Notes under the pieces: generated by a model
Seen by the model: only the letters and a program-made list of their open reading frames with translations
The model's database searches: none
What the model was told of the DNA's origin: nothing
Made by a program: the position numbers and the translations under genes
Part shown: piece by piece, positions 341 to 38,086 of the stretch
Layout: the number at the start of each line of letters is the position of its first letter
Numbering within the stretch: position 1 is the stretch's first letter
DNA from: Bacteroidales bacterium
GTDB taxonomy: Bacteria; Bacteroidota; Bacteroidia; Bacteroidales; WCHB1-69
Assembly (NCBI GenBank): GCA_045639985.1
Contig: JAZUEE010000073.1
Span: 1-44,269 of the forward strand
Length of the DNA: 44,269 nucleotides
Reading direction: 5' to 3'

Positions 341-371
341 TTTGGTATTTAAATAACTATACTTATATTTG
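341..371 (+). promoter_or_regulatory. Bacteroidota-type promoter, early-promoter repeat copy 1 (TTTG 341-344, 19-nt spacer, TATATTTG 364-371)
   Basis: Matches TTTG-N19-TAnnTTTG. The ~100-nt block 331-427 recurs at 9581-9678, 34651-34752 and 37721-37818. Confidence 0.7.
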
Positions 372-395
372 CATTCGGAAATAATGACCAACGCA

Positions 396-411
396 CCGGG
401 GCGGTTCCCGG
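396..411 (+). promoter_or_regulatory. Leader hairpin CCGGG-GCGGTT-CCCGG, 16 nt upstream of the ATG at 428
   Basis: Perfect 5-bp stem with a 6-nt loop, followed by ATAAAACA. Same design at seven other leaders. Confidence 0.7.
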
Positions 412-709: not shown

Positions 710-780
710 TGCCCTGTGGTGTAATGGTAACACACCAGATTTTGGTTCTGGTATTCACGGTTCGAGTCCGTGCGGGGCAA
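710..780 (+). tRNA. tRNA-Gln (anticodon TTG)
   Basis: Hand-folded cloverleaf. Acceptor TGCCCTG/CGGGGCA; D stem GTGT/ACAC with loop AATGGTA. Anticodon stem CCAGA/TCTGG with loop TT-TTG-GT; T stem CACGG/CCGTG with loop TTCGAGT. 71 nt, no encoded CCA. Confidence 0.88.
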
Positions 781-798
781 CAAAAACATAAAATATAA

Positions 799-1272
799 AT
801 GAATATAAAACATAGAAATACTGATGCGGAATTTATAGAAGCTGCGAAGCATTCAAGAAGCATTGCCGGAATGTGTCGTTATTTGGGGCGTTCTCCATTC
901 GGTGCCGGATATAAGATTGTACACAAGAAGATTAAAGAATTGAATATTGATGTTTCGCATTTTACAGGTAGGGGATGGAATGTTGGATTGGGATTCAAGC
1001 CAAACCCCAAAAAGGATATGAAAGAATGTTTGGTTGAAAATTCATCCTATACCTGTACCAACACATTACGATTGCGATTGTTGCGTGAAGGATACAAGGA
1101 ACATAAATGCGAAATCTGCGGAAATACTGAATGGAATGGAAAACCAATACCATTGCAATTGCACCATAAAAATGGAATACACAATGATAACAGATTGGAA
1201 AATTTGCAAATTTTATGTCCAAATTGTCACGCACAAACCGACACGTTTGCCGGAAAGAATATGAAAAAATAA
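799..1272 (+). CDS. HNH homing-type endonuclease (157 aa)
   Basis: C-terminal CEICG...LQLHHKNGIHNDNRLENLQILCPNCH is an HNH motif with paired Cys. The gene sits 18 nt after one tRNA and 5 nt before the next. Confidence 0.85.
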   Translation: MNIKHRNTDAEFIEAAKHSRSIAGMCRYLGRSPFGAGYKIVHKKIKELNIDVSHFTGRGWNVGLGFKPNPKKDMKECLVENSSYTCTNTLRLRLLREGYKEHKCEICGNTEWNGKPIPLQLHHKNGIHNDNRLENLQILCPNCHAQTDTFAGKNMKK

Positions 1273-1277
1273 TACAT

Positions 1278-1359
1278 GCCCACGTGATGGAATTGGTAGA
1301 CATACAAGTTTCAAAAACTTGCGCCGAAGGGCGTGCCGGTTCAACTCCGGCCGTGGGTA
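1278..1359 (+). tRNA. tRNA-Leu (anticodon CAA), long variable arm
   Basis: Hand-folded. Acceptor GCCCACG/CGTGGGT (G1-U72 wobble); D arm ATG-GAATTGGTAGA-CAT. Anticodon stem CAAGT/ACTTG with loop TT-CAA-AA; 13-nt variable arm. T stem GCCGG/CCGGC with loop TTCAACT. 82 nt. Confidence 0.85.
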
Positions 1360-1360
1360 C

Positions 1361-1451: not shown

Positions 1452-1465
1452 ATTTTGAAAGCCGA

Positions 1466-1481
1466 CCGGGCGTATTCCCGG
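1466..1481 (+). promoter_or_regulatory. Leader hairpin CCGGG-CGTATT-CCCGG, 18 nt upstream of the ATG at 1500
   Basis: Same CCGGG-N6-CCCGG formula as 396-411. Confidence 0.65.
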
Positions 1482-3097: not shown

Positions 3098-3142
3098 CAC
3101 ATAACCGGGTGCGGCATTGTCCGCACCCATGTTTCAAACGAT

Positions 3143-5340: not shown

Positions 5341-5541
5341 ATGGAACCGATTTTATTGAATTATCCGCCACAGGTCGCGGAACAAGCCGTTGATGGAATG
5401 ATGCAACAGGCCGAGCAAGACCCCAATTGTGATGAAAACAAAAAGGCGATCTTTAAGGATGTACAAACCTTGGTAAAGTTCGCCATCAGTCAATTATTAC
5501 CATTACCCGCACCTGGCGGCACCGGGGAACATAAAAACTAA
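5341..5541 (+). CDS. hypothetical protein (66 aa)
   Basis: ATG ORF 3 nt after the upstream stop. Confidence 0.6.
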   Translation: MEPILLNYPPQVAEQAVDGMMQQAEQDPNCDENKKAIFKDVQTLVKFAISQLLPLPAPGGTGEHKN

Positions 5542-6626: not shown

Positions 6627-6753
6627 ATACAAAGAATGCGGCGATTGCAGACATTTTGACAATGGGGATGATTGCGATGTTTGCCGCAAGCATAACCGCC
6701 CGGCAGAATGTTACGATTTCCCGTGCGATGACTTTGATGATGGCGAACAATGA
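6613..6753 (+). CDS. hypothetical Cys-rich acidic miniprotein (46 aa), below the track cutoff
   Basis: Hand translation: MADIKYKECGDCRHFDNGDDCDVCRKHNRPAECYDFPCDDFDDGEQ, with two CxxC pairs. Its stop overlaps the next ATG (ATGA at 6750). Confidence 0.5.
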   Translation: MADIKYKECGDCRHFDNGDDCDVCRKHNRPAECYDFPCDDFDDGEQ

Positions 6754-7094
6754 GAACGAAAGAACCGAAACCATACAAACAGGATTTTGCGGAAATATCC
6801 CGGCGATCCATCAAACGTGATTTCCAAAATGCAAGCTTTCGCAAACAGGAACACAGGCCCGAAGGACAGGCCGAGCCGGACAACATCAAGCGCGTTTTGT
6901 CAATCAGTGACAAAAGCCAATATGCCAAATACAAACGATTCTTTATTGGCAAGTTGGTTCGGGTGTTAAGACCTGCCGCATCTGGTGGATGGTATGTGGA
7001 GTTTGTCCGTGATGAAGATCGCAGATTTTTGAACGCAAACGCCGAATGGCATGACAAGCGCGAATACCTGTTGGATGGCGCAAAATTTGACTAA
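6750..7094 (+). CDS. hypothetical basic protein (114 aa)
   Basis: ATG ORF. No motif recognised. Confidence 0.65.
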   Translation: MRTKEPKPYKQDFAEISRRSIKRDFQNASFRKQEHRPEGQAEPDNIKRVLSISDKSQYAKYKRFFIGKLVRVLRPAASGGWYVEFVRDEDRRFLNANAEWHDKREYLLDGAKFD

Positions 7095-7108: not shown

Positions 7109-7534
7109 ATGAATAAATGCATTTTAAAAGGCAATGTTGGGCAAGACCCAAAGATTACCGATTTTGAGAATGGCGGCAAGGTCGCACAATTCACATTGGC
7201 CACAACTGAACGTGGATTCAAAACCCGGGATGGCCAAGATATTCCAGATGAAACATCATGGCACAACGTTGTTGTCCGCAAGTCTGGCTTGGCTAATCTT
7301 TGCGAACAATATGTGAAGAAGGGCACACCCCTGTTGATTGAGGGCAAAATAAAAACCCGTGAGTATCTTGACAACGAGGGCAAGAAAAGGTACATAACCG
7401 AAATCCATGTCAGTGAAATGGAGTTGTTGGGCGGTGGCAATAGACAATCAGGCGCACCGGTACCGACACCCGAAGCACCGTACAAGTCAGCAGAGGAAAG
7501 CGACCCAACGGCCAACTGGCCATCTGGAATGTAA
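7109..7534 (+). CDS. ssb: single-stranded DNA-binding protein (141 aa)
   Basis: Typical OB-fold SSB N-terminus (MNKCILKGNVGQDPKI...FTLATTE...TSWHNVVV...YVKKGTPLLIEGKIKTREY) with a Pro/Gly/Glu-rich flexible tail. Confidence 0.88.
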   Translation: MNKCILKGNVGQDPKITDFENGGKVAQFTLATTERGFKTRDGQDIPDETSWHNVVVRKSGLANLCEQYVKKGTPLLIEGKIKTREYLDNEGKKRYITEIHVSEMELLGGGNRQSGAPVPTPEAPYKSAEESDPTANWPSGM

Positions 7535-7545
7535 GTTGAACGAAT

Positions 7546-7561
7546 CCGGGGGCAACCCCGG
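7546..7561 (+). promoter_or_regulatory. Leader hairpin CCGGG-GGCAAC-CCCGG, 17 nt upstream of the ATG at 7579
   Basis: Same formula, followed by ATAAAACA. It lies in the short ssb-downstream spacer with no promoter match. Confidence 0.65.
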
Positions 7562-7578
7562 ATAAAACACATCAAGCA

Positions 7579-8091
7579 ATGCAGTTGAACACAAACGAAT
7601 ACAACCCGGAGTTGCACGACAAATACAGGGCGTTGACCGTTAAGCAACCATACGCGCAGCATCTTGTAACGGCGGCATACGTTGATGATGGCATTACCTA
7701 TGCCGAAAAGTCAATAGAGGTGCGAAGCCGTGCAACCTCATATCGTGGCGAATTGCTCATTTGCTCATCGGCCACGCCTGTAATGCCGGGGTTGCTATCT
7801 GGCGTTACCATGGGGTTCGTGGAGTTGTACGATGTAAAGCCGTTGGAACAATTCACGGAACAGGATTGGGCGAATACGTGCATACCTGTTGATGAACGCC
7901 CCAAAAAAGGCTTTGGATGGCTGATGCGCAACCCAAGGCGAGTTGTTGAAATGCCATGCAAAGGCCAATTGGGCATCTATTACTTTGTAACTCCAAAGGA
8001 TGACATTACCGAATACCCGACCATGTGCAAGGTTGACAAAGAAAGTTGGTTGCTGATTCAAAGAAAGATAAACAATGGGCATAACAAATAA
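7579..8091 (+). CDS. ASCH/PUA-like domain protein (170 aa), tentative
   Basis: N-terminal ALTVKQPYAQHLV...KSIEVRS resembles the ASCH beta-barrel start. Weak motif-level call. Confidence 0.45.
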   Translation: MQLNTNEYNPELHDKYRALTVKQPYAQHLVTAAYVDDGITYAEKSIEVRSRATSYRGELLICSSATPVMPGLLSGVTMGFVELYDVKPLEQFTEQDWANTCIPVDERPKKGFGWLMRNPRRVVEMPCKGQLGIYYFVTPKDDITEYPTMCKVDKESWLLIQRKINNGHNK

Positions 8092-8437
8092 ATACCGCAT
8101 CGTGGACAAGAGCCACCCGCGTTATGGCAAAAGGTTCAAGGGGATGCCAACCGCCGAGTTGGGCGTGATAGATGTTAAGACAAATGAATGTTTTGACATT
8201 TCCCAAGTGCAGATGATACCAGACCAACACGCCGGATATTTCGGTGCGTATTTCGGCCGACTTGGCTTGTTCCTGTTTGGCCGCGAATATATCAAGTATC
8301 ATTCGTTGCAGTTCGGTTTGGCCATAGATCATATCAAGCACGATGATATGTACTTGGATATTGAATTGAAAGTTGCCGTTGTCGGCATCGGAATAAGGTT
8401 TACGTGGCTATCAAAACGCAAATACTATGGGCAATAG
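8075..8437 (+). CDS. hypothetical protein (120 aa)
   Basis: ATG ORF overlapping its neighbours by 17 and 11 nt. Confidence 0.6.
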   Translation: MGITNKYRIVDKSHPRYGKRFKGMPTAELGVIDVKTNECFDISQVQMIPDQHAGYFGAYFGRLGLFLFGREYIKYHSLQFGLAIDHIKHDDMYLDIELKVAVVGIGIRFTWLSKRKYYGQ

Positions 8438-8996
8438 AATAACACCATTTGATTACGAAGCTTTGGTAATGCTTGAATCACTCACGGAACGCGGTGTTGT
8501 GCCAACTGAAATGGATGACAACTTTACATTCCACGTGTTTTATAACAAGCACAACGACCCAATGTATATAAGCGCAATAATTGATGCCATGCGTGGCCGA
8601 TATGGCGAACGGTTCATTGAGGTAAACGATTACCCGGATAGCAAAATGCTGAAATTCACGATTGCTTACGACAAACACGAATACCCAGAAGCAAACGGTT
8701 ATTTCCATGTGGATAAGGCACGCACCCAATGGGGCGATATATATTGCCGTCAGTTGGAAGAGGTAGCAGCCATACAAGTAAAGGAAGAGAATATGAGCAG
8801 ATTGCAAGACTTTGTTGGTGGCGGTCAGATGGTAGTTGACCGTTGGCCCGATGGAAGCAAAGCATGTTTCACGTTTCTTAACAACGGCGTGTTTGTGGAT
8901 GTACAGGATGGCGATTATATTGTACGTCATGACAAGTCAACAATCTTTGAGGTCTGGTCAAAATTAAGATTTGAAAAGGAATGGGAACGCAAATAA
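8427..8996 (+). CDS. hypothetical protein (189 aa)
   Basis: ATG ORF. No motif recognised. Confidence 0.7.
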   Translation: MGNRITPFDYEALVMLESLTERGVVPTEMDDNFTFHVFYNKHNDPMYISAIIDAMRGRYGERFIEVNDYPDSKMLKFTIAYDKHEYPEANGYFHVDKARTQWGDIYCRQLEEVAAIQVKEENMSRLQDFVGGGQMVVDRWPDGSKACFTFLNNGVFVDVQDGDYIVRHDKSTIFEVWSKLRFEKEWERK

Positions 8997-9325
8997 CACC
9001 AATCGCAATGGCTGAAACATATTGGGCGAACACTCATTTATCCATTGCCCGTTATTGTGGCGGTATAAAGTACAATAACCACGAATATGTGATTGTTAAC
9101 AAAGAAGGCAAGGATATTTTTGAATGCTCAAGGATTGCCGAAAAAGAAGGCCGAGAAAAGGCAATTGAACCCGGAGAACCGGCCGACCTCTGCCGAGTTG
9201 ACTTTGTGCCGATTTACCGCAAGTTGGGTCGTGAAAAGTTCCTGGCTTTCTGTAAGGCATTCCCAGATATGCAGACACCAAAAGAAGCAAGGCAAAATTT
9301 GAAACAATGGACATCAACCAATTAA
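8981..9325 (+). CDS. hypothetical protein (114 aa)
   Basis: ATG ORF. No motif recognised. Confidence 0.65.
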   Translation: MGTQITPIAMAETYWANTHLSIARYCGGIKYNNHEYVIVNKEGKDIFECSRIAEKEGREKAIEPGEPADLCRVDFVPIYRKLGREKFLAFCKAFPDMQTPKEARQNLKQWTSTN

Positions 9326-9498
9326 AATGCGGCACATGTGGCAATACTGAATTGGAAAGCCGTTTTGATGCCTTTGCATATTGCACGAAAAATGATATCT
9401 TTGTGTCCAGAGAACAGGGCGCATGCATATCGCATACCGCTTTGCAGAAGGAAAACAAAATAGGGTTTCGGCCCGAATATGTCAAGCAAGCAAAATAG
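9307..9498 (+). CDS. hypothetical protein (63 aa) with N-terminal CxxC
   Basis: ATG ORF, last gene before a strong terminator. Confidence 0.55.
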   Translation: MDINQLKCGTCGNTELESRFDAFAYCTKNDIFVSREQGACISHTALQKENKIGFRPEYVKQAK

Positions 9499-9504
9499 AG
9501 ATTT

Positions 9505-9547
9505 CCGGGGCGTTAAGCAAGCAGGCCGCCCCGGATTTGTCGTTTTT
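9505..9547 (+). terminator. Rho-independent terminator
   Basis: 8-bp stem CCGGGGCG (9505-9512) / CGCCCCGG (9527-9534), followed by ATTTGTCGTTTTT. Confidence 0.8.
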
Positions 9548-9588
9548 AGGTGGATAATGCAAAAAAGTGAATAATAAAAACAAAAAGT

Positions 9589-9619
9589 TTTGGTGTTTAA
9601 TAAAAGTTCACTATGTTTG
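9589..9619 (+). promoter_or_regulatory. Early-promoter repeat copy 2 (TTTG 9589-9592, 19-nt spacer, TATGTTTG 9612-9619)
   Basis: Aligns with copies 1, 3 and 4 across AAAAAGTTTTGGTRTTTAA and TTTGYATTCGGAAAT. Confidence 0.7.
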
Positions 9620-9644
9620 TATTCGGAAATGATAACCAAACGGA

Positions 9645-9660
9645 TGCGGCCGGTTCCGCA
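9645..9660 (+). promoter_or_regulatory. Leader hairpin variant TGCGG-CCGGTT-CCGCA, 18 nt upstream of the ATG at 9679
   Basis: Same position, 16-nt size and loop ending in TT as the other copies. The stem sequence differs but both arms change together, so pairing is kept. Confidence 0.6.
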
Positions 9661-9678
9661 ATTAACACAAACAAGATC

Positions 9679-9852
9679 ATGGCAACAAAAGATTTTAGAT
9701 TCAAAGTAACTTACTTGCACGAATACATGGCATTGGCATTTGTAAGGGTTGAGGATGATTTGATGATTTACGTTAACGAAAATGAAGATTTCGTAATGAT
9801 GTTTGCCAAAGGTTATTGCGCCGCCAAAGGAGAAGATTTCTTTGTAGAATAA
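9679..9852 (+). CDS. hypothetical acidic protein (57 aa)
   Basis: Start set at the ATG at 9679, because the track start 9613 lies inside the -7 promoter box. A GGGGCGG/CCGCCCC hairpin follows at 9858-9875. Confidence 0.55.
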   Translation: MATKDFRFKVTYLHEYMALAFVRVEDDLMIYVNENEDFVMMFAKGYCAAKGEDFFVE

Positions 9853-9857
9853 GAACA

Positions 9858-9875
9858 GGGGCGGTTACCCGCCCC
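9858..9875 (+). terminator. Hairpin GGGGCGG-TTAC-CCGCCCC (terminator-like, no U tract)
   Basis: 7-bp GC stem with the same stem sequence as the hairpin at 38069-38086, which closes the other single-gene early cassette. Confidence 0.5.
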
Positions 9876-9893
9876 ACCAAAATACAACAGGCA

Positions 9894-9909
9894 CCGGGGC
9901 CATTCCCGG
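9894..9909 (+). promoter_or_regulatory. Leader hairpin CCGGG-GCCATT-CCCGG, 21 nt upstream of the ATG at 9931
   Basis: Same formula, followed by AAACGATAAAACA. Confidence 0.65.
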
Positions 9910-9930
9910 AAACGATAAAACACAAACGAC

Positions 9931-10194
9931 ATGGAAATGACAATTACAAAAGCAATCAAGGTTGCAAAAATGTACACAAAGAGGGCATCCGAGATTAAGG
10001 ATTACAGGCTGAAAAAGGCCGATAAAGTCCGCAAGGCACAGGCCGTTGAATTGTCCAATGGTAAAGGTTACATTGTTGCGACCGCCGAGGAGCTGGGAAT
10101 GAAGAAAGACGGGCGCAAACATATATGGTGCTACTACAATGGTTGCCCGAATGTTTCCGGCAAGGTTAGCATTTCACTTGTAATGGTTCGTTAG
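9931..10194 (+). CDS. hypothetical protein (87 aa)
   Basis: ATG ORF behind a leader hairpin. Confidence 0.6.
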   Translation: MEMTITKAIKVAKMYTKRASEIKDYRLKKADKVRKAQAVELSNGKGYIVATAEELGMKKDGRKHIWCYYNGCPNVSGKVSISLVMVR

Positions 10195-10206
10195 AACGAA
10201 GGCGAT

Positions 10207-10464
10207 ATGGGATCATTTATAGCAAGACAACCAAACGGTTTATTGTGTAGGTTTAGCGAGGTTGTGGATACCGTTACCGACTACAACATGACCGAAGAAG
10301 AATACATTGAAATGTGCGCAGAAAAGGCAAGAGAGGAAGCGCGATGGATTATACAACACAGGTTAAGGCCGTATGATTGGGTAAAATCGCATTTCGCACC
10401 AATCAACATGACATTCCAAGAATTTGACACAATCTGTCAAGAAATGGAAAAACCGAACGAATAA
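10207..10464 (+). CDS. hypothetical protein (85 aa)
   Basis: ATG ORF followed by a terminator. Confidence 0.6.
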   Translation: MGSFIARQPNGLLCRFSEVVDTVTDYNMTEEEYIEMCAEKAREEARWIIQHRLRPYDWVKSHFAPINMTFQEFDTICQEMEKPNE

Positions 10465-10469
10465 CGAGA

Positions 10470-10493
10470 ACAGGCCAATGCGGCCTGTTTTTG
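10470..10493 (+). terminator. Rho-independent terminator
   Basis: Stem ACAGGCC/GGCCTGT with loop AATGC, followed by TTTTTG. Confidence 0.8.
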
Positions 10494-10520
10494 TCGTAAG
10501 AAATAAAATGCCTATATTTG
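10490..10520 (+). promoter_or_regulatory. Bacteroidota-type promoter (TTTG 10490-10493, 19-nt spacer, TATATTTG 10513-10520)
   Basis: Exact consensus match. The -33 element overlaps the terminator U tract. Confidence 0.65.
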
Positions 10521-10561
10521 TGCCACGCCCCTTGAAAAGTCAAAGGGAAAGGCATTAACAC

Positions 10562-10589
10562 CGGGGCAACAAGCGATACGCACGCCCCG
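10562..10589 (+). promoter_or_regulatory. Leader hairpin CGGGGC-N16-GCCCCG, 14 nt upstream of the ATG at 10604
   Basis: 6-bp stem followed by TAAAACA. A long-loop relative of the CCGGG-N6-CCCGG hairpins; the loop contains AAGCGATACG. Confidence 0.55.
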
Positions 10590-10603
10590 TAAAACAATTG
10601 GAT

Positions 10604-11821
10604 ATGTTACAAATTGAGTTACGGAAATTATCTTCTTTGAAACCGCACCCAGACAACCCGCGCAAATCAGTTCCGGGCGGCGTTGAAAAACTTGCGGAAT
10701 CAATCAAAGGCAATCCAAACTATTTCAATGCAAGGCCGATTGTGCTTTCCAATCGCACAGGCGAGTTTGTGATCATTGATGGCGAACGCAGAAGCGAAGC
10801 TGCATTGTATCTGGGCATGGAACAAGTGCCGACAATCCTCATGGAAGGATTGACATACGAAGATGAGTTGGAAATCCTTGTGAAAGGCAACACCCACACC
10901 GGCGTTTGGGATGAGGTAAAACTTGCCACCGATAAATGGAACGCGGCCAAACTCAAAGAATGGAACTGCGATGCCAAATGGAAAACCCCGGCCAAACCTG
11001 TTTCCGAAGATGATTTTGATGGCAACACGGAAAAGATAATCGTGCGCTGCAAGCCGGGCGATGTGTGGCAGCTTGGCAATCATCGTTTGATGTGCGGCGA
11101 TTCAGTCAAGTTGGAAGATGTGCAAAAGCTGATGGGGGGGGGTACAATAAAAGCTGACATGGTATTTACCGACCCGCCGTATGGCGTTTCTATTGGCGAT
11201 AAAAACAAAATGCTTAACTCCGTTCAGCGGTCGGGAAAGTGTGTTGAAAACATCGCAAATGACACCTTGACATCGGAAGAGTTATACCCTATTCTGGTAA
11301 ACGCCATGACCAATGCAAGGTTGAGTTGCAAGGATGATGCATCATATTTTGTTACTGCACCGCAAGGCGGCGAGTTGGGATTGATGATGATGATGATGAA
11401 GGATGCCGGATTGCCTGTACGCCACAATTTGATATGGCGCAAAAATAGTGCAACCTTCTCATTGGGCAGATTGGATTACGATTACCAACACGAACCGATA
11501 ATATACACGTGGACAAAATCGCACCACAATTACCGAGAAGGAAAGTATCGCACGACAATATGGGACTTTGACAAACCAAGGAAATGCGACTTACACCCGA
11601 CAATGAAACCCGTTGAATTGGTGGCCAATTGCTTGATGGATTGCACAAAAGAAAACGATGTTGTCCTTGATGTGTTCGGCGGCTCTGGTACAACAATGAT
11701 CGCCGCAGAGCAATTGAACCGAAAAGCATGTTTGATGGAGCTTGACCCACACTATTGCGATGTAATAATTGCACGATGGGAGAAATACACAGGCCAACAG
11801 GCTACAAGAATTGAAAATTAG
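10604..11821 (+). CDS. ParB-like nuclease domain fused to an N6/N4 DNA methyltransferase (405 aa)
   Basis: N-terminal ParB-type LKPHPDNPRK...IIDGERR. MTase motif IV is FTDPPYG and motif I is DVFGGSGTTMIAAEQL (beta-class order). The track start 10598 is TTG; the ATG is at 10604. Confidence 0.88.
   Translation: MLQIELRKLSSLKPHPDNPRKSVPGGVEKLAESIKGNPNYFNARPIVLSNRTGEFVIIDGERRSEAALYLGMEQVPTILMEGLTYEDELEILVKGNTHTGVWDEVKLATDKWNAAKLKEWNCDAKWKTPAKPVSEDDFDGNTEKIIVRCKPGDVWQLGNHRLMCGDSVKLEDVQKLMGGGTIKADMVFTDPPYGVSIGDKNKMLNSVQRSGKCVENIANDTLTSEELYPILVNAMTNARLSCKDDASYFVTAPQGGELGLMMMMMKDAGLPVRHNLIWRKNSATFSLGRLDYDYQHEPIIYTWTKSHHNYREGKYRTTIWDFDKPRKCDLHPTMKPVELVANCLMDCTKENDVVLDVFGGSGTTMIAAEQLNRKACLMELDPHYCDVIIARWEKYTGQQATRIEN
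11134..11142 (+). repeat. G9 homopolymer at the ParB/MTase domain junction
   Basis: Read directly as atg ggg ggg ggt. A change of one G in either direction meets a stop within 2-5 codons. Confidence 0.9.
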
Positions 11822-11825
11822 ACCC

Positions 11826-11900
11826 ATACAGGGCGCGTAAATGTTAAACAATAACAATGGTTGCAAGCAGGCAAAAAACGCACCGTGCGCCCTGTATTTT
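11826..11900 (+). terminator. Long-loop hairpin with U tract (ATACAGGGCGC 11826-11836 / GCGCCCTGTAT 11887-11897, then TTT)
   Basis: 11-bp perfect inverted repeat around a 50-nt loop, located between the methyltransferase and terS. Confidence 0.55.
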
Positions 11901-13933: not shown

Positions 13934-13937
13934 CAAG

Positions 13938-13970
13938 AACGGCCTATTTTCGGGCCGTTTCGTGCGTTTT
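13938..13970 (+). terminator. Rho-independent terminator
   Basis: Stem AACGGCC/GGCCGTT followed by a T-rich tail (TTCGTGCGTTTT). Confidence 0.7.
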
Positions 13971-19645: not shown

Positions 19646-19680
19646 GGGGTGGGGTATTGCCCCGCCCCTTTCTTATTTAA
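19646..19680 (+). terminator. Rho-independent terminator
   Basis: 9-bp stem GGGGTGGGG/CCCCGCCCC followed by TTTCTTATTT. Confidence 0.85.
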
Positions 19681-21024: not shown

Positions 21025-21073
21025 CGGTTATTTATTGCTAATTTTGGCCGTGGTGCGTTTTTCTTTGCGATAT

Positions 21074-21126
21074 GGTAAATTGTACCACCGAGAAAAGAAA
21101 CGCGCCCACGGGCCGATAAAAATGCA
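21074..21126 (+). promoter_or_regulatory. Conserved module copy D (box GGTAAATTGTACC 21074-21086, spacer 7 nt shorter)
   Basis: Box plus GAGAAAAGAAACGC...ACGGGCC...AAAAAT aligns with copy A. It ends 12 nt before the ATG at 21138. Confidence 0.6.
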
Positions 21127-23325: not shown

Positions 23326-26300
23326 ATGGACAATCCAAACCCAATTTTTTACCGCGATTTGGTCACGCCGGACAATTCAATTACCACGTTGATTGGTCAA
23401 TTGGAAACCTTGATTGGCAAATATGGCGAAGCCAAACAAAAGATACAGGGCGATGCCGCGCAGTTGGCAAAAGCAATGGAAAATGTATCATCGGCCACCG
23501 AGGAACAACGCAAGGAAATACAATTGGTAACAACGCAATCGGACAAGTTGGCCGAAGAATACAAGAAGGTTGCCGAAGAGGAAAGGCGTGCCAACCTGTT
23601 GTTGCAAGCATCCAACAAGGCCAAGCGAGAGCAAACACAAATAGATAAATTGATCGTGCAGTTGACAAACGCCGAAGCCGGGTCATACAATCAATTGTCT
23701 GCGCAGTATCGTTTGAACAAGATACGATTGAACGAAATGAGTGATGCCGAAAGGCGCGGAACAGAAGCCGGAAGGCAATTGGAAACCGAAACGCGCAAAA
23801 TATATGAACGCATGAGTGAGTTGCAGAAGGCAACAGGCAAATATACGTTAGAGGTCGGCCATTACGAAAATGCCATGAGGGCATTGCCGGGGCCGTTGCG
23901 TTCATTTACACAGGGATTGAGCCAGATGGGCAACCAATTGGTTACAATCGGCAAAAGTGACATACCATTGGCCGCAAAAGCAATGCAAGGGTTTTCAACC
24001 GTTGCATTTGGTGCTTTGGGTATCGTAATGTCATTTGTGCGTTACTTTACAAGCGCAATGAAAACGATGCGCGAGTTTGAACAAGCCAACGCCGACTTGT
24101 CAACCATTCTGGGCGTGAACGTGAAAGATATGAAGGCGTTGACCGATTCGGCATTGTCTTTGGGTCGTTCAACCGAATACGCGGCATCACAGGTAACGCA
24201 GTTACAAACAGAGTTGGCAAAGCTTGGTTTTGGTCAAGGTTCAATCATCGCCATGCAGAAATACGTGTTGCAGTTCGCAACGGCCACAGGCGCAAATTTG
24301 GCCGAAGCGGCATCCGTTGCCGGTGCAACATTGCGTGCTTTCAACCTCACAAGCGCAGACACCGAAGATGTGTTGGCAACATTGGCCGTAGCAACAAACA
24401 ATTCGGCGTTGTCGTTTGACAAAATACGTGATTCAATCGGCACCGTGTTCCCTGTTGCAAATGCTTACGGCCTTTCCGTGAAAGATACCACGGCATTGTT
24501 GGGTGCATTGGCTAATGCCGGATTTGATGCATCAAGTGCGGCCACGGCAACACGCAATATCCTGTTGAACTTGGCAGATGCTAACGGCAAATTGGCAAAA
24601 CGTTTGGGCGGCACCGTAAGCACGTTTGATGACATAATGAATGCGCTTATAAAGTTGCGTAAAGAGGGTGTTTCGCTGAATGAAATGTTGGAGATCACCG
24701 ACAAACGTAGTGTTTCTGCTTTCTCCAACTTTGTATCGGGTGCGGAAAGCGCACGCGAATTGCGCCAAAGTCTGGAAGATGTATCCGGGGAACTTGACCG
24801 CATACAAAGCGAAAGGTTGAACACCGTGGAAGGTTCAACAAAGCTTTTGAACTCTGCGTGGGAAGGTCTTACGTTGGCCTTCCAAAAGTCAAACGGCGCA
24901 ATGAAAGAAACAATTGATTGGATGACCAAGTTGATTAACAAAACCCAACAATTGTTGTTCCCTACGGAAACATTCATATCGGAAGAAGCCGACAAGTTTA
25001 CGGCACAATTCCAAGACTTTTATGCGAAGAATGGCGGCGAAGCTGCCAAGGCATACATAAACACACTCACGAAACAATTTGAGGAATGGGATAAAAAGGC
25101 TGGACAGGAAGCCGGGCGCGAACCGATATTGAATCGTTGGTTGGGCATCGGCAAGAAACAGGAAGCGGCCAAGGCGGCTGCATCAGCTTTGCCCGCCATA
25201 CGGCAAGCGGCAAGTGTCGTTTTGATGCAGATTGAGAATGACACCAAAGAAGCCGCAGACCGTGCCGCACGCGCAGAGGAACAGGCCGCACAGGATGCCG
25301 CCAACAGGGCAAGCGAGTTGACAAAGGAACAAAAGAAGGAGTTGGAAAAGCAGATGCGCCAACGCATCGCAGACCGAAAAGCCGTTGTTGAATCCATAAA
25401 CCTGGAGATTGCCGTAACCGCCGCCGGAACGGATAAGATGTTGGCATTGCGCCAAGATAAGATTGAAGCGCAACGCCAATTGGAGTTGGAACAAAACCGC
25501 CAGAAGGTGGAAAGCGAAAGGCAAGATGAAGCGGCCATCAATGCCAAGTACGACAAGCAATTGTTGGATGATAAAACGGCGTATTACAACGAGCTTTCCA
25601 AGCTGCGTGAAAGTTCTTTGCAAGCCGAGTTAAACGGCATCAATCTTACTCTTGCCAACACCAAAAAGGGAACAAGCATGGAACTTGCGTTGCGCTTGGA
25701 TGCAATCGGCAAGCAACGTGAAATAGAGTTGGAAAAGAATAAGCAATTGAAAGTGGAGTTGCGCCAAGATGAAGCGGCCATCAATGCGAAATACGATGCC
25801 ATGGTGCGCGACACAACAATTGATTTCCATACCAATTCGGCAATGGAGTTGTTGAATATACAACAGGAGTTGGCGGCATCCGAATTTGACTTGCTGAACA
25901 AGAACGAACGCCAAAAGACCCAATTCCGTTTGCAACAGGAGAAAGAACGTTTGCAAAAGATCCTTGAACTGAACAGGATGAACGGAAAGGACTTGACCGC
26001 CGAACAGGTGGCCACAATCCAGAATCAAATTGCGGCCATTGACAAGGTAAGCAAAACAACCCCATTTAAGAACTTGTATGAGGTTTTGGGTATCGGCCTT
26101 AACGATGAGCAGCAAGAAGCCATGAACACCGTTATAAGCGAAACGATGAACAATGTTTCCGACCTCATCAACATGTGGGTGCAAGAAGCCGATGCAGCCA
26201 TACAGGCGGCAAATGCCAAGGTTGATTCAGCACAACGTGCGTTGGATGCCGAGATAGAAGCACGAAATAATGGTTATGCCAACAACGTTATTCAGGCGCA

Positions 26301-32900: not shown

Positions 32901-32906
32901 CAATCG

Positions 32907-32924
32907 GGGCGGCATGTGCCGCCC
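32907..32924 (+). promoter_or_regulatory. Hairpin GGGCGGCA-TG-TGCCGCCC between holin and endolysin
   Basis: 8-bp perfect stem in the 42-nt spacer. No clear U tract. Confidence 0.5.
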
Positions 32925-32942
32925 TGTTAACATTTTCACATC

Positions 32943-34660: not shown

Positions 34661-34691
34661 TTTGGTATTTAAGGGAATAGTGTTACCTTTG
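34661..34691 (+). promoter_or_regulatory. Early-promoter repeat copy 3 (TTTG 34661-34664, 19-nt spacer, TACCTTTG 34684-34691)
   Basis: Consensus match and alignment with copies 1, 2 and 4. Confidence 0.7.
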
Positions 34692-34720
34692 CATTCGGGT
34701 TGAGGGTTCAACCACACCGG

Positions 34721-34736
34721 CCGGGCGGGTTCCCGG
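34721..34736 (+). promoter_or_regulatory. Leader hairpin CCGGG-CGGGTT-CCCGG, 16 nt upstream of the ATG at 34753
   Basis: Same formula, followed by ATAAACA. Confidence 0.7.
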
Positions 34737-37729: not shown

Positions 37730-37760
37730 TTTGGTGTTTAAATAAAGTTTTGTATTTTCG
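37730..37760 (+). promoter_or_regulatory. Early-promoter repeat copy 4 (TTTG 37730-37733, 19-nt spacer, TATTTTCG 37753-37760)
   Basis: Aligns base for base with copy 1. The -7 box has one mismatch to TAnnTTTG. Confidence 0.6.
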
Positions 37761-37784
37761 TGGTCGGAAATAGTAACCAACGCG

Positions 37785-37800
37785 CCGGGGCGGTTCCCGG
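37785..37800 (+). promoter_or_regulatory. Leader hairpin CCGGG-GCGGTT-CCCGG, 18 nt upstream of the ATG at 37819
   Basis: Identical to the hairpin at 396-411. Confidence 0.7.
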
Positions 37801-38068: not shown

Positions 38069-38086
38069 GGGGCGGGCAACCGCCCC
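38069..38086 (+). terminator. Hairpin GGGGCGG-GCAA-CCGCCCC (terminator-like, no U tract)
   Basis: Same stem sequence as 9858-9875. Confidence 0.5.

What the first reader, a model, noticed from the sequence alone, without database searches (positions are those of the whole stretch)
396..411. CCGGG-N6-CCCGG hairpin at a fixed 14-21 nt upstream of eight start codons
The exact pattern CCGGG-N6-CCCGG occurs at 396, 1466, 7546, 9894, 34721 and 37785. All are on the + strand and intergenic. Each is followed by an A-rich AUAAAACA-like stretch, with the ATG 16-21 nt after the stem.

At 9645 the equivalent position carries TGCGG-CCGGTT-CCGCA: the stem sequence differs but both arms change together so pairing is kept. 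At 10562 a longer-loop relative, CGGGGC-N16-GCCCCG-TAAAACA, precedes the methyltransferase ATG by 14 nt.

A 10-nt specified pattern would be expected far less than once by chance in 44 kb. The hairpins have no U tract, so they are not terminators. Three follow early promoters at about +25, as lambda nut boxB does, but one (7546) has no promoter nearby. The constant distance to the ATG instead argues for a translation, mRNA-stability or processing role in a host that lacks Shine-Dalgarno pairing.

Whichever role holds, this is a phage-wide RNA signal without an obvious described counterpart.
Basis: partly seen in the sequence, partly recalled or inferred. Interest (0 to 1): 0.72.

Follow-up and report, generated by a model that had tools for sequence, protein, structure and literature searches.

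The report
Compact RNA pseudoknot/hairpin before phage start codons
A group of phages of Bacteroidota, a bacterial phylum that does not use Shine-Dalgarno ribosome-binding sites, places a very stable, roughly 8-base-pair RNA helix 15-21 nt upstream of many early-gene start codons; in most copies in this window it is a previously undescribed 20-nt pseudoknot, and its function has not been tested.

Summary
CCGGG-N6-CCCGG occurs six times (0.04 expected), always intergenic and 16-21 nt before an ATG. The variants at 9645 and 10562 are as described.

The element is bigger than reported. In five window copies (396, 9645, 9894, 34721, 37785), the three bases at -4..-2 pair with the first three loop bases. 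These pairs covary (CGC:GCG, CGG:CCG, GGC:GCC, CCG:CGG; relatives add ACG:CGT, AGC:GCT). This gives a 20-nt H-type pseudoknot (3+5 bp). Other slots hold 7-9-bp hairpins, mostly with GNRA or UUCG tetraloops, or a tRNA.

The motif recurs in all five nearest isolates (Bacteroides, Parabacteroides, Alistipes and Elizabethkingia phages) and in at least 110 IMG/VR loci. It is kept at orthologous leaders with compensatory changes. It is absent from more distant relatives (B40-8, BF695P3, P2559S, MT835637), and the one host-genome scan gave only chance hits and misbinned phage contigs. It matches no Rfam family.

Its 3' edge abuts the A-rich Bacteroidetes initiation signal (-15..-11, -6, -3). It is not a terminator, a recoding signal or a DNA palindrome.

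Best reading: a cis-acting structural module bounding Shine-Dalgarno-less initiation regions of non-coupled early genes. The structure is well supported. The function is inferred, and processing/stability or protein-operator roles remain open.

The parts
392..411 (+). Pseudoknot copy 1. S1 is 392-394 (CGC) paired with 401-403 (GCG); L1 is A395; S2 is 396-400 (CCGGG) paired with 407-411 (CCCGG); L3 is 404-406 (GTT). A 16-nt A-rich spacer leads to ATG 428.
   Evidence: The equivalent copy is conserved in relative L178 at 5346-5365.
341..371 (+). Bacteroidota sigma-ABfr-type promoter (TTTG-N19-TAtaTTTG) driving the leader that contains copy 1.
   Evidence: Consensus as quoted in PMC7366714.
710..781 (+). 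tRNA-Gln occupying the same slot: 6 nt after stop 703 and 17 nt before ATG 799.
1462..1481 (+). CCGGG-CGTATT-CCCGG hairpin with an imperfect S1 (CCG against CGT, 2 of 3 pairs). An 18-nt spacer leads to ATG 1500.
3107..3128 (+). 8-bp hairpin GGGTGCGG-CATTGT-CCGCACCC, 9 nt after a stop and 14 nt before ATG 3143. Relative L178 keeps the stem with a different loop.
7544..7563 (+). 8-bp hairpin ATCCGGGG-GCAA-CCCCGGAT (GNRA tetraloop), lying after the SSB gene and 15 nt before ATG 7579 (ASCH-like gene).
   Evidence: Relative L178 has the same stem with another loop.
9641..9660 (+). Pseudoknot copy with both helices changed. S1 is CGG paired with CCG; S2 is TGCGG paired with CCGCA; L3 is GTT. An 18-nt spacer leads to ATG 9679. 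It is preceded by promoter 9589-9619.
9858..9875 (+). 7-bp hairpin GGGGCGG-TTAC-CCGCCCC, 5 nt after stop 9852 and directly upstream of the next pseudoknot.
9890..9909 (+). Pseudoknot copy. S1 is GGC paired with GCC; S2 is CCGGG paired with CCCGG; L3 is ATT. A 21-nt spacer leads to ATG 9931.
10562..10589 (+). 6-bp stem with a 16-nt loop (CGGGGC...GCCCCG), 14 nt before ATG 10604 (ParB-methyltransferase gene). It follows promoter 10490-10520.
32905..32926 (+). 9-bp hairpin with a 4-nt loop (ATGT), 16 nt before ATG 32943 (M15 peptidase gene).
34661..34691 (+). Early promoter (TTTG-N19-TAccTTTG).
34698..34713 (+). Extra 5'-proximal leader hairpin GGTTGA-GGGT-TCAACC.
34717..34736 (+). Pseudoknot copy. 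S1 is CCG paired with CGG; L1 is G; S2 is CCGGG paired with CCCGG; L3 is GTT. A 16-nt spacer leads to ATG 34753. Orthologous leaders in five relatives carry other S1/S2 combinations.
37781..37800 (+). Pseudoknot copy. S1 is CGC paired with GCG; L1 is G; S2 is CCGGG paired with CCCGG. An 18-nt spacer leads to ATG 37819. A promoter-like site lies at 37730-37760 with an imperfect -7 box.
38069..38086 (+). 7-bp hairpin GGGGCGG-GCAA-CCGCCCC (GNRA tetraloop), 4 nt after a stop and 16 nt before ATG 38103.

Best explanation
**What it is (well supported).** A family of cis-acting RNA structures on the mRNA strand. Each builds a compact, G+C-rich helix of about 8 bp.
- One form is a 20-nt H-type pseudoknot: S1 of 3 bp (5' flank with loop bases 1-3), L1 of 1 nt, S2 of 5 bp (usually CCGGG:CCCGG), no L2, and L3 = NUU.
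- The other form is a 7-9-bp hairpin, most often capped by a GNRA or UUCG tetraloop.

**Where it sits.** Its 3' edge lies 15-21 nt before the ATG of genes that are not translationally coupled to the preceding gene. On the 5' side it follows one of three things:
- an early sigma-ABfr promoter, about 12-17 nt after the inferred transcription start;
- the stop codon of the preceding gene, 4-11 nt away;
- a tRNA.

**How it most likely works (inferred).** It marks the 5' boundary of the Shine-Dalgarno-less, A-rich translation initiation region. The stable helix would give each early cistron a defined single-stranded ribosome-landing window of about 17-20 nt, close to the modal 23-nt 5' UTR of Bacteroides mRNAs. 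As a by-product it would block 3'-to-5' exonucleolytic decay (PNPase) from passing between cistrons. Each early gene would then be an autonomous, portable expression cassette, and the conserved sequence would double as a recombination junction between phages.
For: **Occurrence and position**
- Six exact copies against 0.04 expected.
- In 124 non-redundant contexts from 116 phage sequences, the helix-to-ATG distance is 15-21 nt in 107 of 119. The stop-to-helix distance is 4-11 nt, or else the -7 box lies 19 or 24-25 nt upstream.

**Pseudoknot**
- 27 of 42 unique hexaloop contexts have a perfect 3-nt complement at spacer 1. Other registers give 0-1.
- At least six covarying pair types occur.
- In the pair count, S1 is 83% paired and all three pairs show double changes. 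The covariation score is 0.201 against 0.055 for shuffles (0 of 500 reach it), and slid registers collapse.
- S2 variants CGGGG/CCCCG, CCGGA/TCCGG and TGCGG/CCGCA were found without fixing the arms.

**RNA level, gene strand**
- 31 of the 40 tetraloops in after-stop hairpins are GNRA or UUCG.
- Every covariance-model hit with E <= 0.01 is on the gene strand.

**Equal stability of the two forms**
- The nested 5-bp hairpins fold at only -6.6 to -9.7 kcal/mol, against -16.5 to -19.2 for the tetraloop class.
- S1 adds three G-C pairs, so both forms reach about 8 bp.

**Conservation**
- The motif is present in all five nearest isolates and in more than 110 IMG/VR loci.
- Orthologous leaders keep the structure with changed S1 and S2.

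**Link to initiation**
- Downstream of the helix, A frequency is 0.57-0.90 at -15..-11, 0.58-0.64 at -6/-5 and 0.61 at -3.
- That is the reported Bacteroidetes signature (PMC7366714).
- In the window, about 15 of 24 intergenic gaps of 30 nt or more have a helix ending 14-23 nt before the ATG. Genes without one mostly overlap or abut the upstream gene.

**Other**
- A tRNA ends 14-19 nt before an ATG in three phages.
- Mosaic junctions concentrate at the helix.
Against: - No expression data exist, so the functional step is inference.
- An in-silico test gave little support for a thermodynamic insulator role. Predicted accessibility of the initiation region was 0.643 native, 0.605 with the hairpin deleted and 0.644 with one arm disrupted.
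- The element is absent from B40-8, BF695P3, MT835637 and P2559S, and two of these (B40-8, BF695P3) infect Bacteroides. Host ribosomes therefore do not need it.
- The tight spacing could come from genome compaction plus simple clearance of the initiation region.
- The strong preference for CCGGG/CCCCGG with a G-rich 5' arm goes beyond what stability needs. The closing pairs are G-C, not the C-G that favours GNRA and UUCG loops. This could mean recognition by a protein.
- S1 is only 3 bp, and no pseudoknot energy model or chemical probing was available.
- Many counted contexts are related by descent.
Confidence: 0.45

Rival explanations
1. Processing and stability punctuation. The helices would segment polycistronic early transcripts, as tRNAs and T7 RNase III sites do. 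A host endonuclease (RNase Y or RNase G) would cut next to the helix. The helix would then protect the upstream cistron from PNPase, or cap the new 5' end of the downstream one. The fixed distance to the ATG would be secondary.
For: - A tRNA, which is itself excised, sits in the same slot.
- The helix lies 4-11 nt after stop codons.
- The tetraloops are of the extra-stable GNRA and UUCG families.
- Bacteroidetes are reported to have RNase Y, RNase G and PNPase, but not RNase J or RNase E (bioRxiv 10.1101/2021.04.08.439066).
- Precedents, from memory: T4 intercistronic C(UUCG)G hairpins, T7 RNase III sites, and the B. subtilis cggR-gapA 5' stem-loop.
Against: - Promoter-proximal copies have no upstream cistron to protect.
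- They start about 12-17 nt from the inferred transcription start, too far for a classical 5'-terminal stabiliser.
- In four loci a tRNA is followed by a pseudoknot, so the two are not simply interchangeable.
- 8 bp is too short for RNase III.
- No end-mapping data exist.
Confidence: 0.3
2. Operator for a trans-acting protein. This could be a clade-specific phage RNA-binding protein acting as a translational repressor or activator (like RegA, gp32 or a coat protein), or an N-like antiterminator. It would recognise the conserved CCGGG helix with its A/UU loops on all early leaders and so control the whole early gene set.
For: - Sequence is conserved well beyond what structure needs: S2, L1 = A and L3 = NUU, across dozens of non-homologous sites and across hosts of two orders.
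- The motif is restricted to one clade and was not found in host genomes.
- Three genes share that phyletic pattern: 6750-7094, 8075-8437 and 8427-8996. The first is a basic 114-aa protein.
- The elements are confined to the early/replication half of the genome.
Against: - Tetraloop hairpins with other stems (GGGGCGG, GGGTGCGG) and a tRNA fill the same slot.
- Stems differ at orthologous sites.
- The candidate protein has no Pfam or PHROG hit, and its best PDB fold match has E = 0.79, vaguely SH3-like.
- Any clade-specific gene would show the same phyletic pattern.
- As a nut site it fails on loop type, copy number and position.
- Sequence uniformity can also come from recombination at the element.
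Confidence: 0.17
3. DNA-level element: a palindromic binding or cleavage site (regulator, restriction/modification, recombination hotspot or cruciform). The apparent RNA features would be incidental.
For: - The arms form a perfect DNA palindrome, and each arm contains CCSGG.
- Mosaic junctions cluster at the element: 17 of 69 upstream clusters join more than one downstream cluster, against 2 at a +150-nt control point.
- Rare hybrid copies (ACG flank with a CGG loop) look like crossovers inside the arm.
Against: - Features are strand-asymmetric: GNRA/UUCG loops occur but not their complements, and the flank-loop complementarity lies on the 5' side only.
- Compensatory changes keep pairing while altering sequence.
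- The position is fixed relative to start codons.
- CCGG, CCCGG and CCGGG are not avoided elsewhere in the genome.
Confidence: 0.05

Closest known systems
T4 gene 32 autoregulatory mRNA pseudoknot (PMC3014915)
   Same: - A small H-type pseudoknot with coaxially stacked stems in a phage mRNA leader.
- It is followed by an unstructured A/U-rich stretch that runs into the ribosome-binding site.
- L1 is a single nucleotide (this last detail is from memory of the T2 NMR structure).
   Different: - The T4 element is a single copy, 67 nt upstream of one gene.
- It nucleates cooperative gp32 binding for autoregulation.
- Here there are 5-8 pseudoknot copies per genome, 15-21 nt from many unrelated genes.
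- The stems are 3+5 bp, no binder is known, and the host lacks Shine-Dalgarno pairing.
T4 intercistronic C(UUCG)G and other tetraloop hairpins (Tuerk et al. 1988, recalled from memory, not read here)
   Same: Unusually stable tetraloop hairpins recur between cistrons of phage early mRNAs, without a U tract.
   Different: - The elements here keep a fixed distance to start codons.
- The closing pairs are G-C rather than C-G.
- The stem sequence is conserved.
- A pseudoknot version exists.
- The same element also occurs in promoter-proximal leaders.
PeSL (promoter-early stem-loop) cassettes of T4-like phages (PMC4122927; PMC2839356)
   Same: Short conserved intergenic promoter-plus-stem-loop motifs, repeated through the early/plastic regions, that serve as points of genetic exchange between unrelated genes. 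Here too mosaic junctions concentrate at the element.
   Different: - PeSLs are described as composite terminator/promoter units.
- Here the structure lies downstream of the promoter inside the leader, is not a terminator, and also occurs without any promoter.
Lambda nut site (boxA plus boxB hairpin bound by N)
   Same: A 5-bp G+C-rich hairpin without a U tract in early transcripts, downstream of early promoters.
   Different: - boxB has a 5-nt GNRA-like loop. Here the loops are hexaloops that pair with the flank, or true tetraloops.
- No boxA was seen. This was not searched for formally.
- There are 8-12 copies per genome, each abutting a start codon, and many have no promoter.
tRNA punctuation of polycistronic transcripts and T7 RNase III processing sites
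   Same: Structured RNAs sit between cistrons. In this clade a tRNA can occupy the same slot, ending 14-19 nt before the next ATG.
   Different: - No processing has been shown.
- An 8-bp helix is not an RNase III substrate.
- It is shorter than the 12-bp acceptor/T minihelix that RNase P and RNase Z use (that requirement is from memory).

Membership tests
Intrinsic (Rho-independent) terminator | G+C-rich hairpin immediately followed by a U tract on the transcribed strand | tested here: not met
   - The tails are A-rich: T is 0.07-0.31 at -15..-11.
- None of the copies is flagged on the + strand.
- True T-tract terminators exist elsewhere in the window, for example 13937-13960 and 19646-19668.
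Lambda-type nut site | boxB: 5-bp stem with a 5-nt GNRA-like loop | tested here: not met
   The loops are 6 nt with bases 1-3 paired to the flank, or they are 4-nt GNRA/UUCG loops on 6-9-bp stems.
Lambda-type nut site | boxA (CGCUCUUA-like) upstream of boxB, with one or two sites per genome lying promoter-proximal and upstream of terminators | tested here: inconclusive
   - Copy number and position do not fit: 8-12 sites per genome, each 15-21 nt before an ATG, and many follow stop codons.
- boxA itself was not searched for with a pattern or model.
- By inspection of the leaders, none was seen upstream of the helices.
- AGAGCG occurs downstream of the hairpin in relatives, but it is the reverse complement of CGCUCU.
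Lambda-type nut site | Cognate arginine-rich N protein that binds boxB | not testable with these tools
   Small basic proteins exist (136-330, 6750-7094), but they have no recognisable family or fold.
H-type RNA pseudoknot | Loop bases of a hairpin pair with a flanking single strand, supported by covariation, with sterically feasible loops | tested here: met
   - S1 of 3 bp sits at a fixed register, and all three pairs covary.
- L1 = 1 nt across a 5-bp stem and L3 = 3 nt across a 3-bp stem are feasible by analogy with known small pseudoknots. That step is inference.
- No chemical probing is available.
T4 gene 32-type translational operator | The pseudoknot nucleates cooperative binding of the phage ssDNA-binding protein over an A/U-rich leader, giving autoregulation of that gene | not testable with these tools
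   - The architecture is similar: a pseudoknot followed by an A-rich leader.
- The elements precede many unrelated genes. The phage SSB gene (7109-7534) lies upstream of one copy, not downstream.
PeSL mobile regulatory cassette | Composite terminator/early-promoter motif repeated in plastic regions | tested here: not met
   The structure is downstream of the promoter, lacks a U tract, and often has no promoter.
PeSL mobile regulatory cassette | Acts as a junction of modular exchange between unrelated genes | tested here: met
   - 17 of 69 upstream and 16 of 76 downstream clusters have multiple partners at the element, against 2 and 1 at a +150-nt control point.
- Caveat: any intergenic boundary might behave similarly.
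5'-terminal stem-loop mRNA stabiliser (ompA/ermC type) | Structure within a few nucleotides of the mRNA 5' end | tested here: inconclusive
   - The -7 box ends 19 or 24-25 nt before S2.
- With the box centred at -7 (PMC7366714), S1 would start at about +12 to +17.
- The transcription starts are inferred, not mapped.
Programmed readthrough or frameshift stimulator | Pseudoknot 5-9 nt after the recoding site, with the downstream frame open and in phase | tested here: not met
   - (ATG minus stop) mod 3 gives 17/20/20.
- 48 of 57 stops are TAA.
- A second in-frame stop often follows at once.
- Promoter-linked copies have no upstream ORF.
Any Rfam family (release 15) | Score at or near a family's gathering threshold | tested here: not met
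   - Only two tRNAs pass in the whole window.
- Permissive scans of 330-440 and 9560-9940 give only chance-level hits.
Host REP/BIME-like extragenic palindromes | High copy number in the host chromosome | tested here: not met
   - The 20-nt pattern was scanned in 185,579 species genomes.
- It gave 48 hits: chance matches in high-GC taxa, plus 40-46-kb phage contigs misbinned into MAGs.
- None lay on a contig attributable to a Bacteroidota chromosome; the single Bacteroidaceae-labelled hit is a 46-kb phage-sized MAG contig.
- Only this exact pattern (exact CCGGG/CCCGG arms with the two commonest flank/loop types and their hybrids) was scanned.

The most novel reading that the evidence does not exclude
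The 20-nt pseudoknot or 8-bp helix is an active, virus-specific expression signal for a Shine-Dalgarno-less host, not a passive boundary. Two versions fit the evidence.
- It could dock on the 30S platform or on a clade-specific phage protein (for example gp 6750-7094) to recruit ribosomes to early cistrons, acting as a bacterial IRES-like element.
- It could act as a surrogate tRNA-like punctuation mark. A host or phage nuclease would cut there and release monocistronic mRNAs with a leader of about 17-20 nt, close to the modal 23-nt 5' UTR of host mRNAs.
Probability: 0.17. Interest if true: 0.85.

Novelty: new variant of a known kind. Interest (0 to 1): 0.66.

Why it matters
How ribosomes choose start sites in Bacteroidota, which dominate the human gut and do not use Shine-Dalgarno pairing, is only partly understood.
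- **A testable handle.** A phage clade infecting Bacteroides, Parabacteroides, Alistipes and Elizabethkingia has standardised on a tiny structured module placed right at the 5' edge of the initiation region. That makes the open question directly testable with reporters, toeprints and end mapping.
- **Structural interest.** If confirmed, the 20-nt pseudoknot would be among the smallest natural ones.
- **Practical uses.** It could serve as a compact insulator or expression part for Bacteroides synthetic biology. It also works as a sequence marker: more than 110 IMG/VR loci and several misbinned MAG contigs were recognised with it. Finally, it helps locate true start codons and cassette boundaries in these phages.

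Tried and rejected
1. **Terminator.** There is no U tract, and the copies are not flagged.
2. **Readthrough or frameshift stimulator.** There is no phase preference and the stops are mostly TAA.
3. **Restriction-site or DNA-palindrome explanation.** CCGG, CCSGG and related sites are not depleted, and the features are strand-asymmetric.
4. **Host-borne repeat.** The genome scan gave only chance hits and misbinned phage contigs.
5. **Known RNA family.** Rfam scans were negative at gathering and at permissive thresholds.
6. **Thermodynamic insulator.** Predicted accessibility of the initiation region barely depends on the hairpin. The idea is weakened, not excluded.
7. **Finding a binder.**
   - Pfam and PHROG searches of about 45 early proteins gave no RNA-binding family.
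   - The clade-specific 114-aa protein was modelled at pLDDT 77. Its best PDB fold match had E = 0.79.
   - The ASCH-like gene 7579-8091 is also present in motif-less phages.
8. **Near-identical phages.** There is no megablast hit in GenBank phages. The window's own record could not be named.
9. **Literature.** Searches on hairpins in these phages returned nothing relevant.
10. **Mirror pseudoknot.** Pairing of loop bases 4-6 with the 3' tail (AAC with GTT) is seen in one sequence class, but A-rich tails and U-rich loops explain it by composition.
Full report
**1. The observation**

The pattern CCGGG-N6-CCCGG occurs at 396, 1466, 7546, 9894, 34721 and 37785. Dinucleotide-preserving shuffles give a mean of 0.04 matches, and none of 100 reaches six. 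All six sites are intergenic. Their 3' ends lie 16, 18, 17, 21, 16 and 18 nt before an ATG that opens an ORF.

The variant at 9645 (TGCGG-CCGGTT-CCGCA) is 18 nt before ATG 9679. The long-loop hairpin 10562-10589 is 14 nt before ATG 10604.

One correction is needed. The specified positions of the pattern are self-complementary, so the pattern itself cannot say which strand it is on. Strand specificity has to be shown by other features, and it is (section 3).

**2. Context**

- The window looks like a near-complete siphovirus genome with all genes on the + strand. It has two tRNAs and no other Rfam match.
- Its promoters are of the Bacteroidota type, TTTG-N19-TAnnTTTG. They lie at 341, 9589, 10490 and 34661, with an imperfect one at 37730. 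The consensus is as quoted in PMC7366714.
- There is no near-identical GenBank phage.
- By portal protein (61-64% identity) the nearest isolates are Bacteroides phages BKO1-3 and C1_85S2P, Parabacteroides phages PDS1 and PD491P1 (the latter was not fetched), Alistipes phage AS73P1 and Elizabethkingia phage TCUEAP2.
- B40-8-like phages are at about 48% identity and Croceibacter phages at about 44%.

**3. What the element really is**

*Conservation across phages.* The exact motif recurs 4-5 times in each of the five fetched isolates (BKO1-3, C1_85S2P, PDS1, AS73P1, TCUEAP2). It is always on the gene strand, always intergenic and always shortly before an ATG. About 110 of these are AT-rich phage contexts followed by an ATG.

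*A pseudoknot, not a plain hairpin.* Reading the flanks showed that the three bases at -4..-2 are complementary to the first three loop bases, and that the two sets change together.

| Site | Flank | Loop bases 1-3 |
|---|---|---|
| Window 396 and 37785 | CGC | GCG |
| Window 9645 | CGG | CCG |
| Window 9894 | GGC | GCC |
| Window 34721 | CCG | CGG |
| Relatives | ACG | CGT |
| Relatives | CCG | CGG |
| Relatives | AGC | GCT |

- Of 42 unique hexaloop contexts, 27 have the perfect complement at a 1-nt spacer and 6 more at 2-3 nt. Every other register gives 0-1.
- On a 73-sequence alignment this helix (S1) is 83% paired. All three pairs show double changes. The covariation score is 0.201 against 0.055 for shuffles (0 of 500 reach it), and slid registers collapse.
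- A scan that did not fix the arms found 21 pseudoknot types on the gene strand. They include compensatory S2 variants: CGGGG/CCCCG, CCGGA/TCCGG and TGCGG/CCGCA.
- The element is therefore a 20-nt H-type pseudoknot: S1 of 3 bp, L1 of 1 nt (usually A), S2 of 5 bp, no L2, and L3 = NUU.
- Site 1466 is an imperfect member (2 of 3 S1 pairs).

*A second class in the same slot.* Other sites carry a plain 7-9-bp hairpin: 7544-7563 (GCAA loop), 38069-38086 (GCAA loop), 3107-3128 and 32905-32926.
- Across the data set, 31 of the 40 tetraloops in after-stop hairpins are GNRA or UUCG.
- Their reverse complements are essentially absent. This, together with the one-sided S1, places the function on the RNA of the gene strand.
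- Nested folding gives only -6.6 to -9.7 kcal/mol for the 5-bp hexaloop hairpins, against -16.5 to -19.2 for the tetraloop class.
- The three extra G-C pairs of S1 would bring both classes to about 8 stacked pairs. That fits one shared requirement: a compact, very stable helix. This step is inference.

**4. Position rules**

- In 124 non-redundant contexts the helix ends 15-21 nt before the ATG in 107 of 119 cases, peaking at 17-19 nt.
- Upstream there is either a stop codon 4-11 nt away (64 cases) or a -7 promoter box 19 or 24-25 nt away.
- Promoter-linked copies are almost all pseudoknots. Tetraloop hairpins are almost confined to after-stop contexts.
- The region between helix and ATG has A at 0.57-0.90 for -15..-11 (peak at -13), 0.58-0.64 at -6/-5 and 0.61 at -3.
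- That is the adenine signature reported for Bacteroidetes initiation regions. The modal Bacteroides 5' UTR is 23 nt (PMC7366714).
- The helix therefore abuts the 5' edge of the host-type initiation region.
- In the window about 15 of 24 intergenic gaps of 30 nt or more carry a helix ending 14-23 nt before the ATG. Genes without one mostly overlap or abut the preceding gene.
- tRNA-Gln (710-781) sits in the same slot, 6 nt after a stop and 17 nt before ATG 799. AS73P1 (19 nt) and L143 (14 nt) are similar. In four other loci, however, a tRNA is followed by a pseudoknot and then the ATG.
- The elements lie in the early/replication half of the genomes. The structural module (about 12-32 kb here) has T-tract terminators or no structure instead.

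**5. Evolutionary evidence**

- Orthologous leaders keep the structure while changing it.
  - Orthologues of gene 34753 carry CCG:CGG with CCGGG (window), ACG:CGT with CCGGG (BKO1-3, PDS1, C1_85S2P), ACG:CGT with CGGGG (AS73P1), or swapped arms CCCGG...CCGGG (TCUEAP2).
  - Orthologues of gene 428 show four different combinations.
- A closer relative, L178 (found through a protein homologue), keeps three of the elements:
  - the pseudoknot at the 396 equivalent;
  - the post-SSB hairpin, with a different loop;
  - a GGGGCGG hairpin before the ATPase gene.
- The motif is absent from B40-8, BF695P3, MT835637 and P2559S. A covariance model gives hits with E <= 0.01 only in motif-bearing genomes, all on the gene strand.
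- A 20-nt version of the motif (exact CCGGG/CCCGG arms, the two commonest flank/loop types) scanned in one genome per bacterial and archaeal species gave 48 hits. These were chance hits in high-GC taxa plus 40-46-kb phage contigs misbinned into MAGs. None lay on a contig attributable to a Bacteroidota chromosome.
- The element is a mosaic junction. At the helix, 17 of 69 upstream clusters join more than one downstream cluster and 16 of 76 the converse. At a control point 150 nt away the numbers are 2 and 1.
- Rare hybrid copies (ACG flank with a CGG loop) look like crossovers inside S2.

**6. Mechanism**

*Shown.* This is an RNA-level, gene-strand, clade-conserved structure in two interchangeable architectures, at a fixed position relative to the initiation region. 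It is not a terminator. It is not a recoding signal: the phase counts are 17/20/20 and 48 of 57 stops are TAA. It is not primarily a DNA palindrome.

*Inferred (confidence about 0.45).* The helix delimits the Shine-Dalgarno-less initiation region of genes that must be initiated de novo. Secondarily it acts as a decay barrier between cistrons. Early genes thereby become portable cassettes.

*Evidence against.*
- A thermodynamic insulation test was nearly null. Accessibility was 0.643 native, 0.605 with the hairpin deleted and 0.644 with an arm disrupted.
- Sister clades, two of which infect Bacteroides, lack the element.
- Compaction could explain the tight spacing.

*Rivals.*
- **Processing/stability punctuation (about 0.30).** It is supported by the tRNA slot and by the reported host RNase set of RNase Y, RNase G and PNPase without RNase J or E (bioRxiv 10.1101/2021.04.08.439066). 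It is weakened by the promoter-proximal copies. Their S1 starts about 12-17 nt from the inferred transcription start.
- **Operator for a phage protein, including an N-like antiterminator (about 0.17).**
  - For: the sequence is conserved beyond structural need, and three genes are clade-specific, one of them the basic protein 6750-7094.
  - Against: that protein's model matched nothing informative, and unrelated stems and a tRNA fill the same slot.
- **DNA-level site (about 0.05).**

**7. Comparison with known systems**

The nearest analogues are these:
- the T4 gene 32 leader pseudoknot, which is followed by an A/U-rich unstructured leader (PMC3014915);
- T4 intercistronic tetraloop hairpins (recalled from memory);
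- PeSL promoter/stem-loop cassettes that mediate modular exchange (PMC4122927);
- lambda boxB;
- tRNA or RNase III punctuation of polycistronic transcripts.

The element fails the tested defining features of terminators, PeSLs, recoding stimulators and every Rfam family. It also fails the boxB loop, copy-number and position criteria of nut sites. It meets the definition of an H-type pseudoknot by covariation.

**8. Verdict**

It is best filed as a new variant of a known kind: structured leader or intercistronic elements of phage mRNAs. What is new is the following combination:
- a multi-copy, clade-wide 20-nt pseudoknot or tetraloop helix;
- locked to the 5' edge of Shine-Dalgarno-less initiation regions.

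Interest is moderately high. The structure is solid, and it makes an open question about Bacteroidota translation directly testable. The function itself is still unproven.

Noticed in passing
window, whole sequence: CCWGG occurs only 11 times and GATC 46 times in 44 kb, while CCGG (197), GGCC (235) and GCGC (193) are common. This suggests selective avoidance of Dcm/Dam-type restriction targets.
   Followed up: no
window 1494, 1678, 4566, 42437; relatives, e.g. the PDS1 and BKO1-3 genomes at positions 1941 and 31546 in gene-strand orientation (BKO1-3 = L001 reverse-complemented): The pentamer AGCGA is strongly strand-biased: 38 against 10 in the window, and 55-66 against 2-9 in relatives. That is more than base skew predicts. 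It often sits 0-12 nt before ATGs as (AG)AGCGAWA, downstream of the helix. It may be a second initiation-region motif or an orientation-dependent signal.
   Followed up: partly
window 710-1360: An HNH endonuclease gene (799-1272) is bracketed by tRNA-Gln (710-781) and tRNA-Leu (1278-1360), forming a tRNA-HNH-tRNA cassette. L143 shares about 71% nucleotide identity across it.
   Followed up: no
window 8981-11821: Six ORFs have no counterpart in any of the nine compared phages. They include a ParB-like/N6-DNA-methyltransferase fusion (10604-11821). This insertion carries its own promoter/pseudoknot units (9589-9660, 9890-9909, 10490-10589).
   Followed up: partly
L178 13481-15976: In a closer relative the large-terminase gene is 831 aa with a weak LAGLIDADG hit, against 504 aa in the window. 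This suggests an intein or homing-endonuclease insertion.
   Followed up: no
window 34698-34713; AS73P1 (L003) 28971-28985: Some promoter-linked leaders carry an additional 5'-proximal hairpin just upstream of the pseudoknot (GGTTGA-GGGT-TCAACC; GGGGGA-CAA-TCCCCC). Other leaders have a weak GG...CC or GGG...CCC pairing at the same place.
   Followed up: no
TCUEAP2 (L005) 23384-23433 and 31370-31418: Tandem arrangement: CCGGGG-GAAA-CCCCGG is followed 18 nt later by a hairpin with swapped arms, CCCGG-CGCATT-CCGGG, and then the ATG. This occurs twice in that genome.
   Followed up: no
window 6750-7094, 8075-8437, 8427-8996: Three genes of unknown function are present in all five motif-bearing isolates and absent from the four motif-less relatives. 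The first is a basic 114-aa protein with a disordered N-terminus and a small beta-rich C-terminal domain. Its AF2 model has pLDDT 77 and no significant PDB fold match.
   Followed up: partly
L127, L130, L135, L136, L143, L148, L149, L165, L171 (genome contigs): Contigs of 40-46 kb that carry the motif are filed in MAGs named Propionibacterium, Clostridia, Faecousia, Enterousia and Acutalibacteraceae. They appear to be phage genomes of this clade binned into unrelated bacterial MAGs.
   Followed up: partly
window 11826-11900 and 21044-21115: Two long imperfect hairpins (about 70 nt) lie in late-region intergenic gaps, before the small-terminase gene and before gene 21138. Each ends about 20-23 nt before the ATG. 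The first is followed by a short T run.
   Followed up: no
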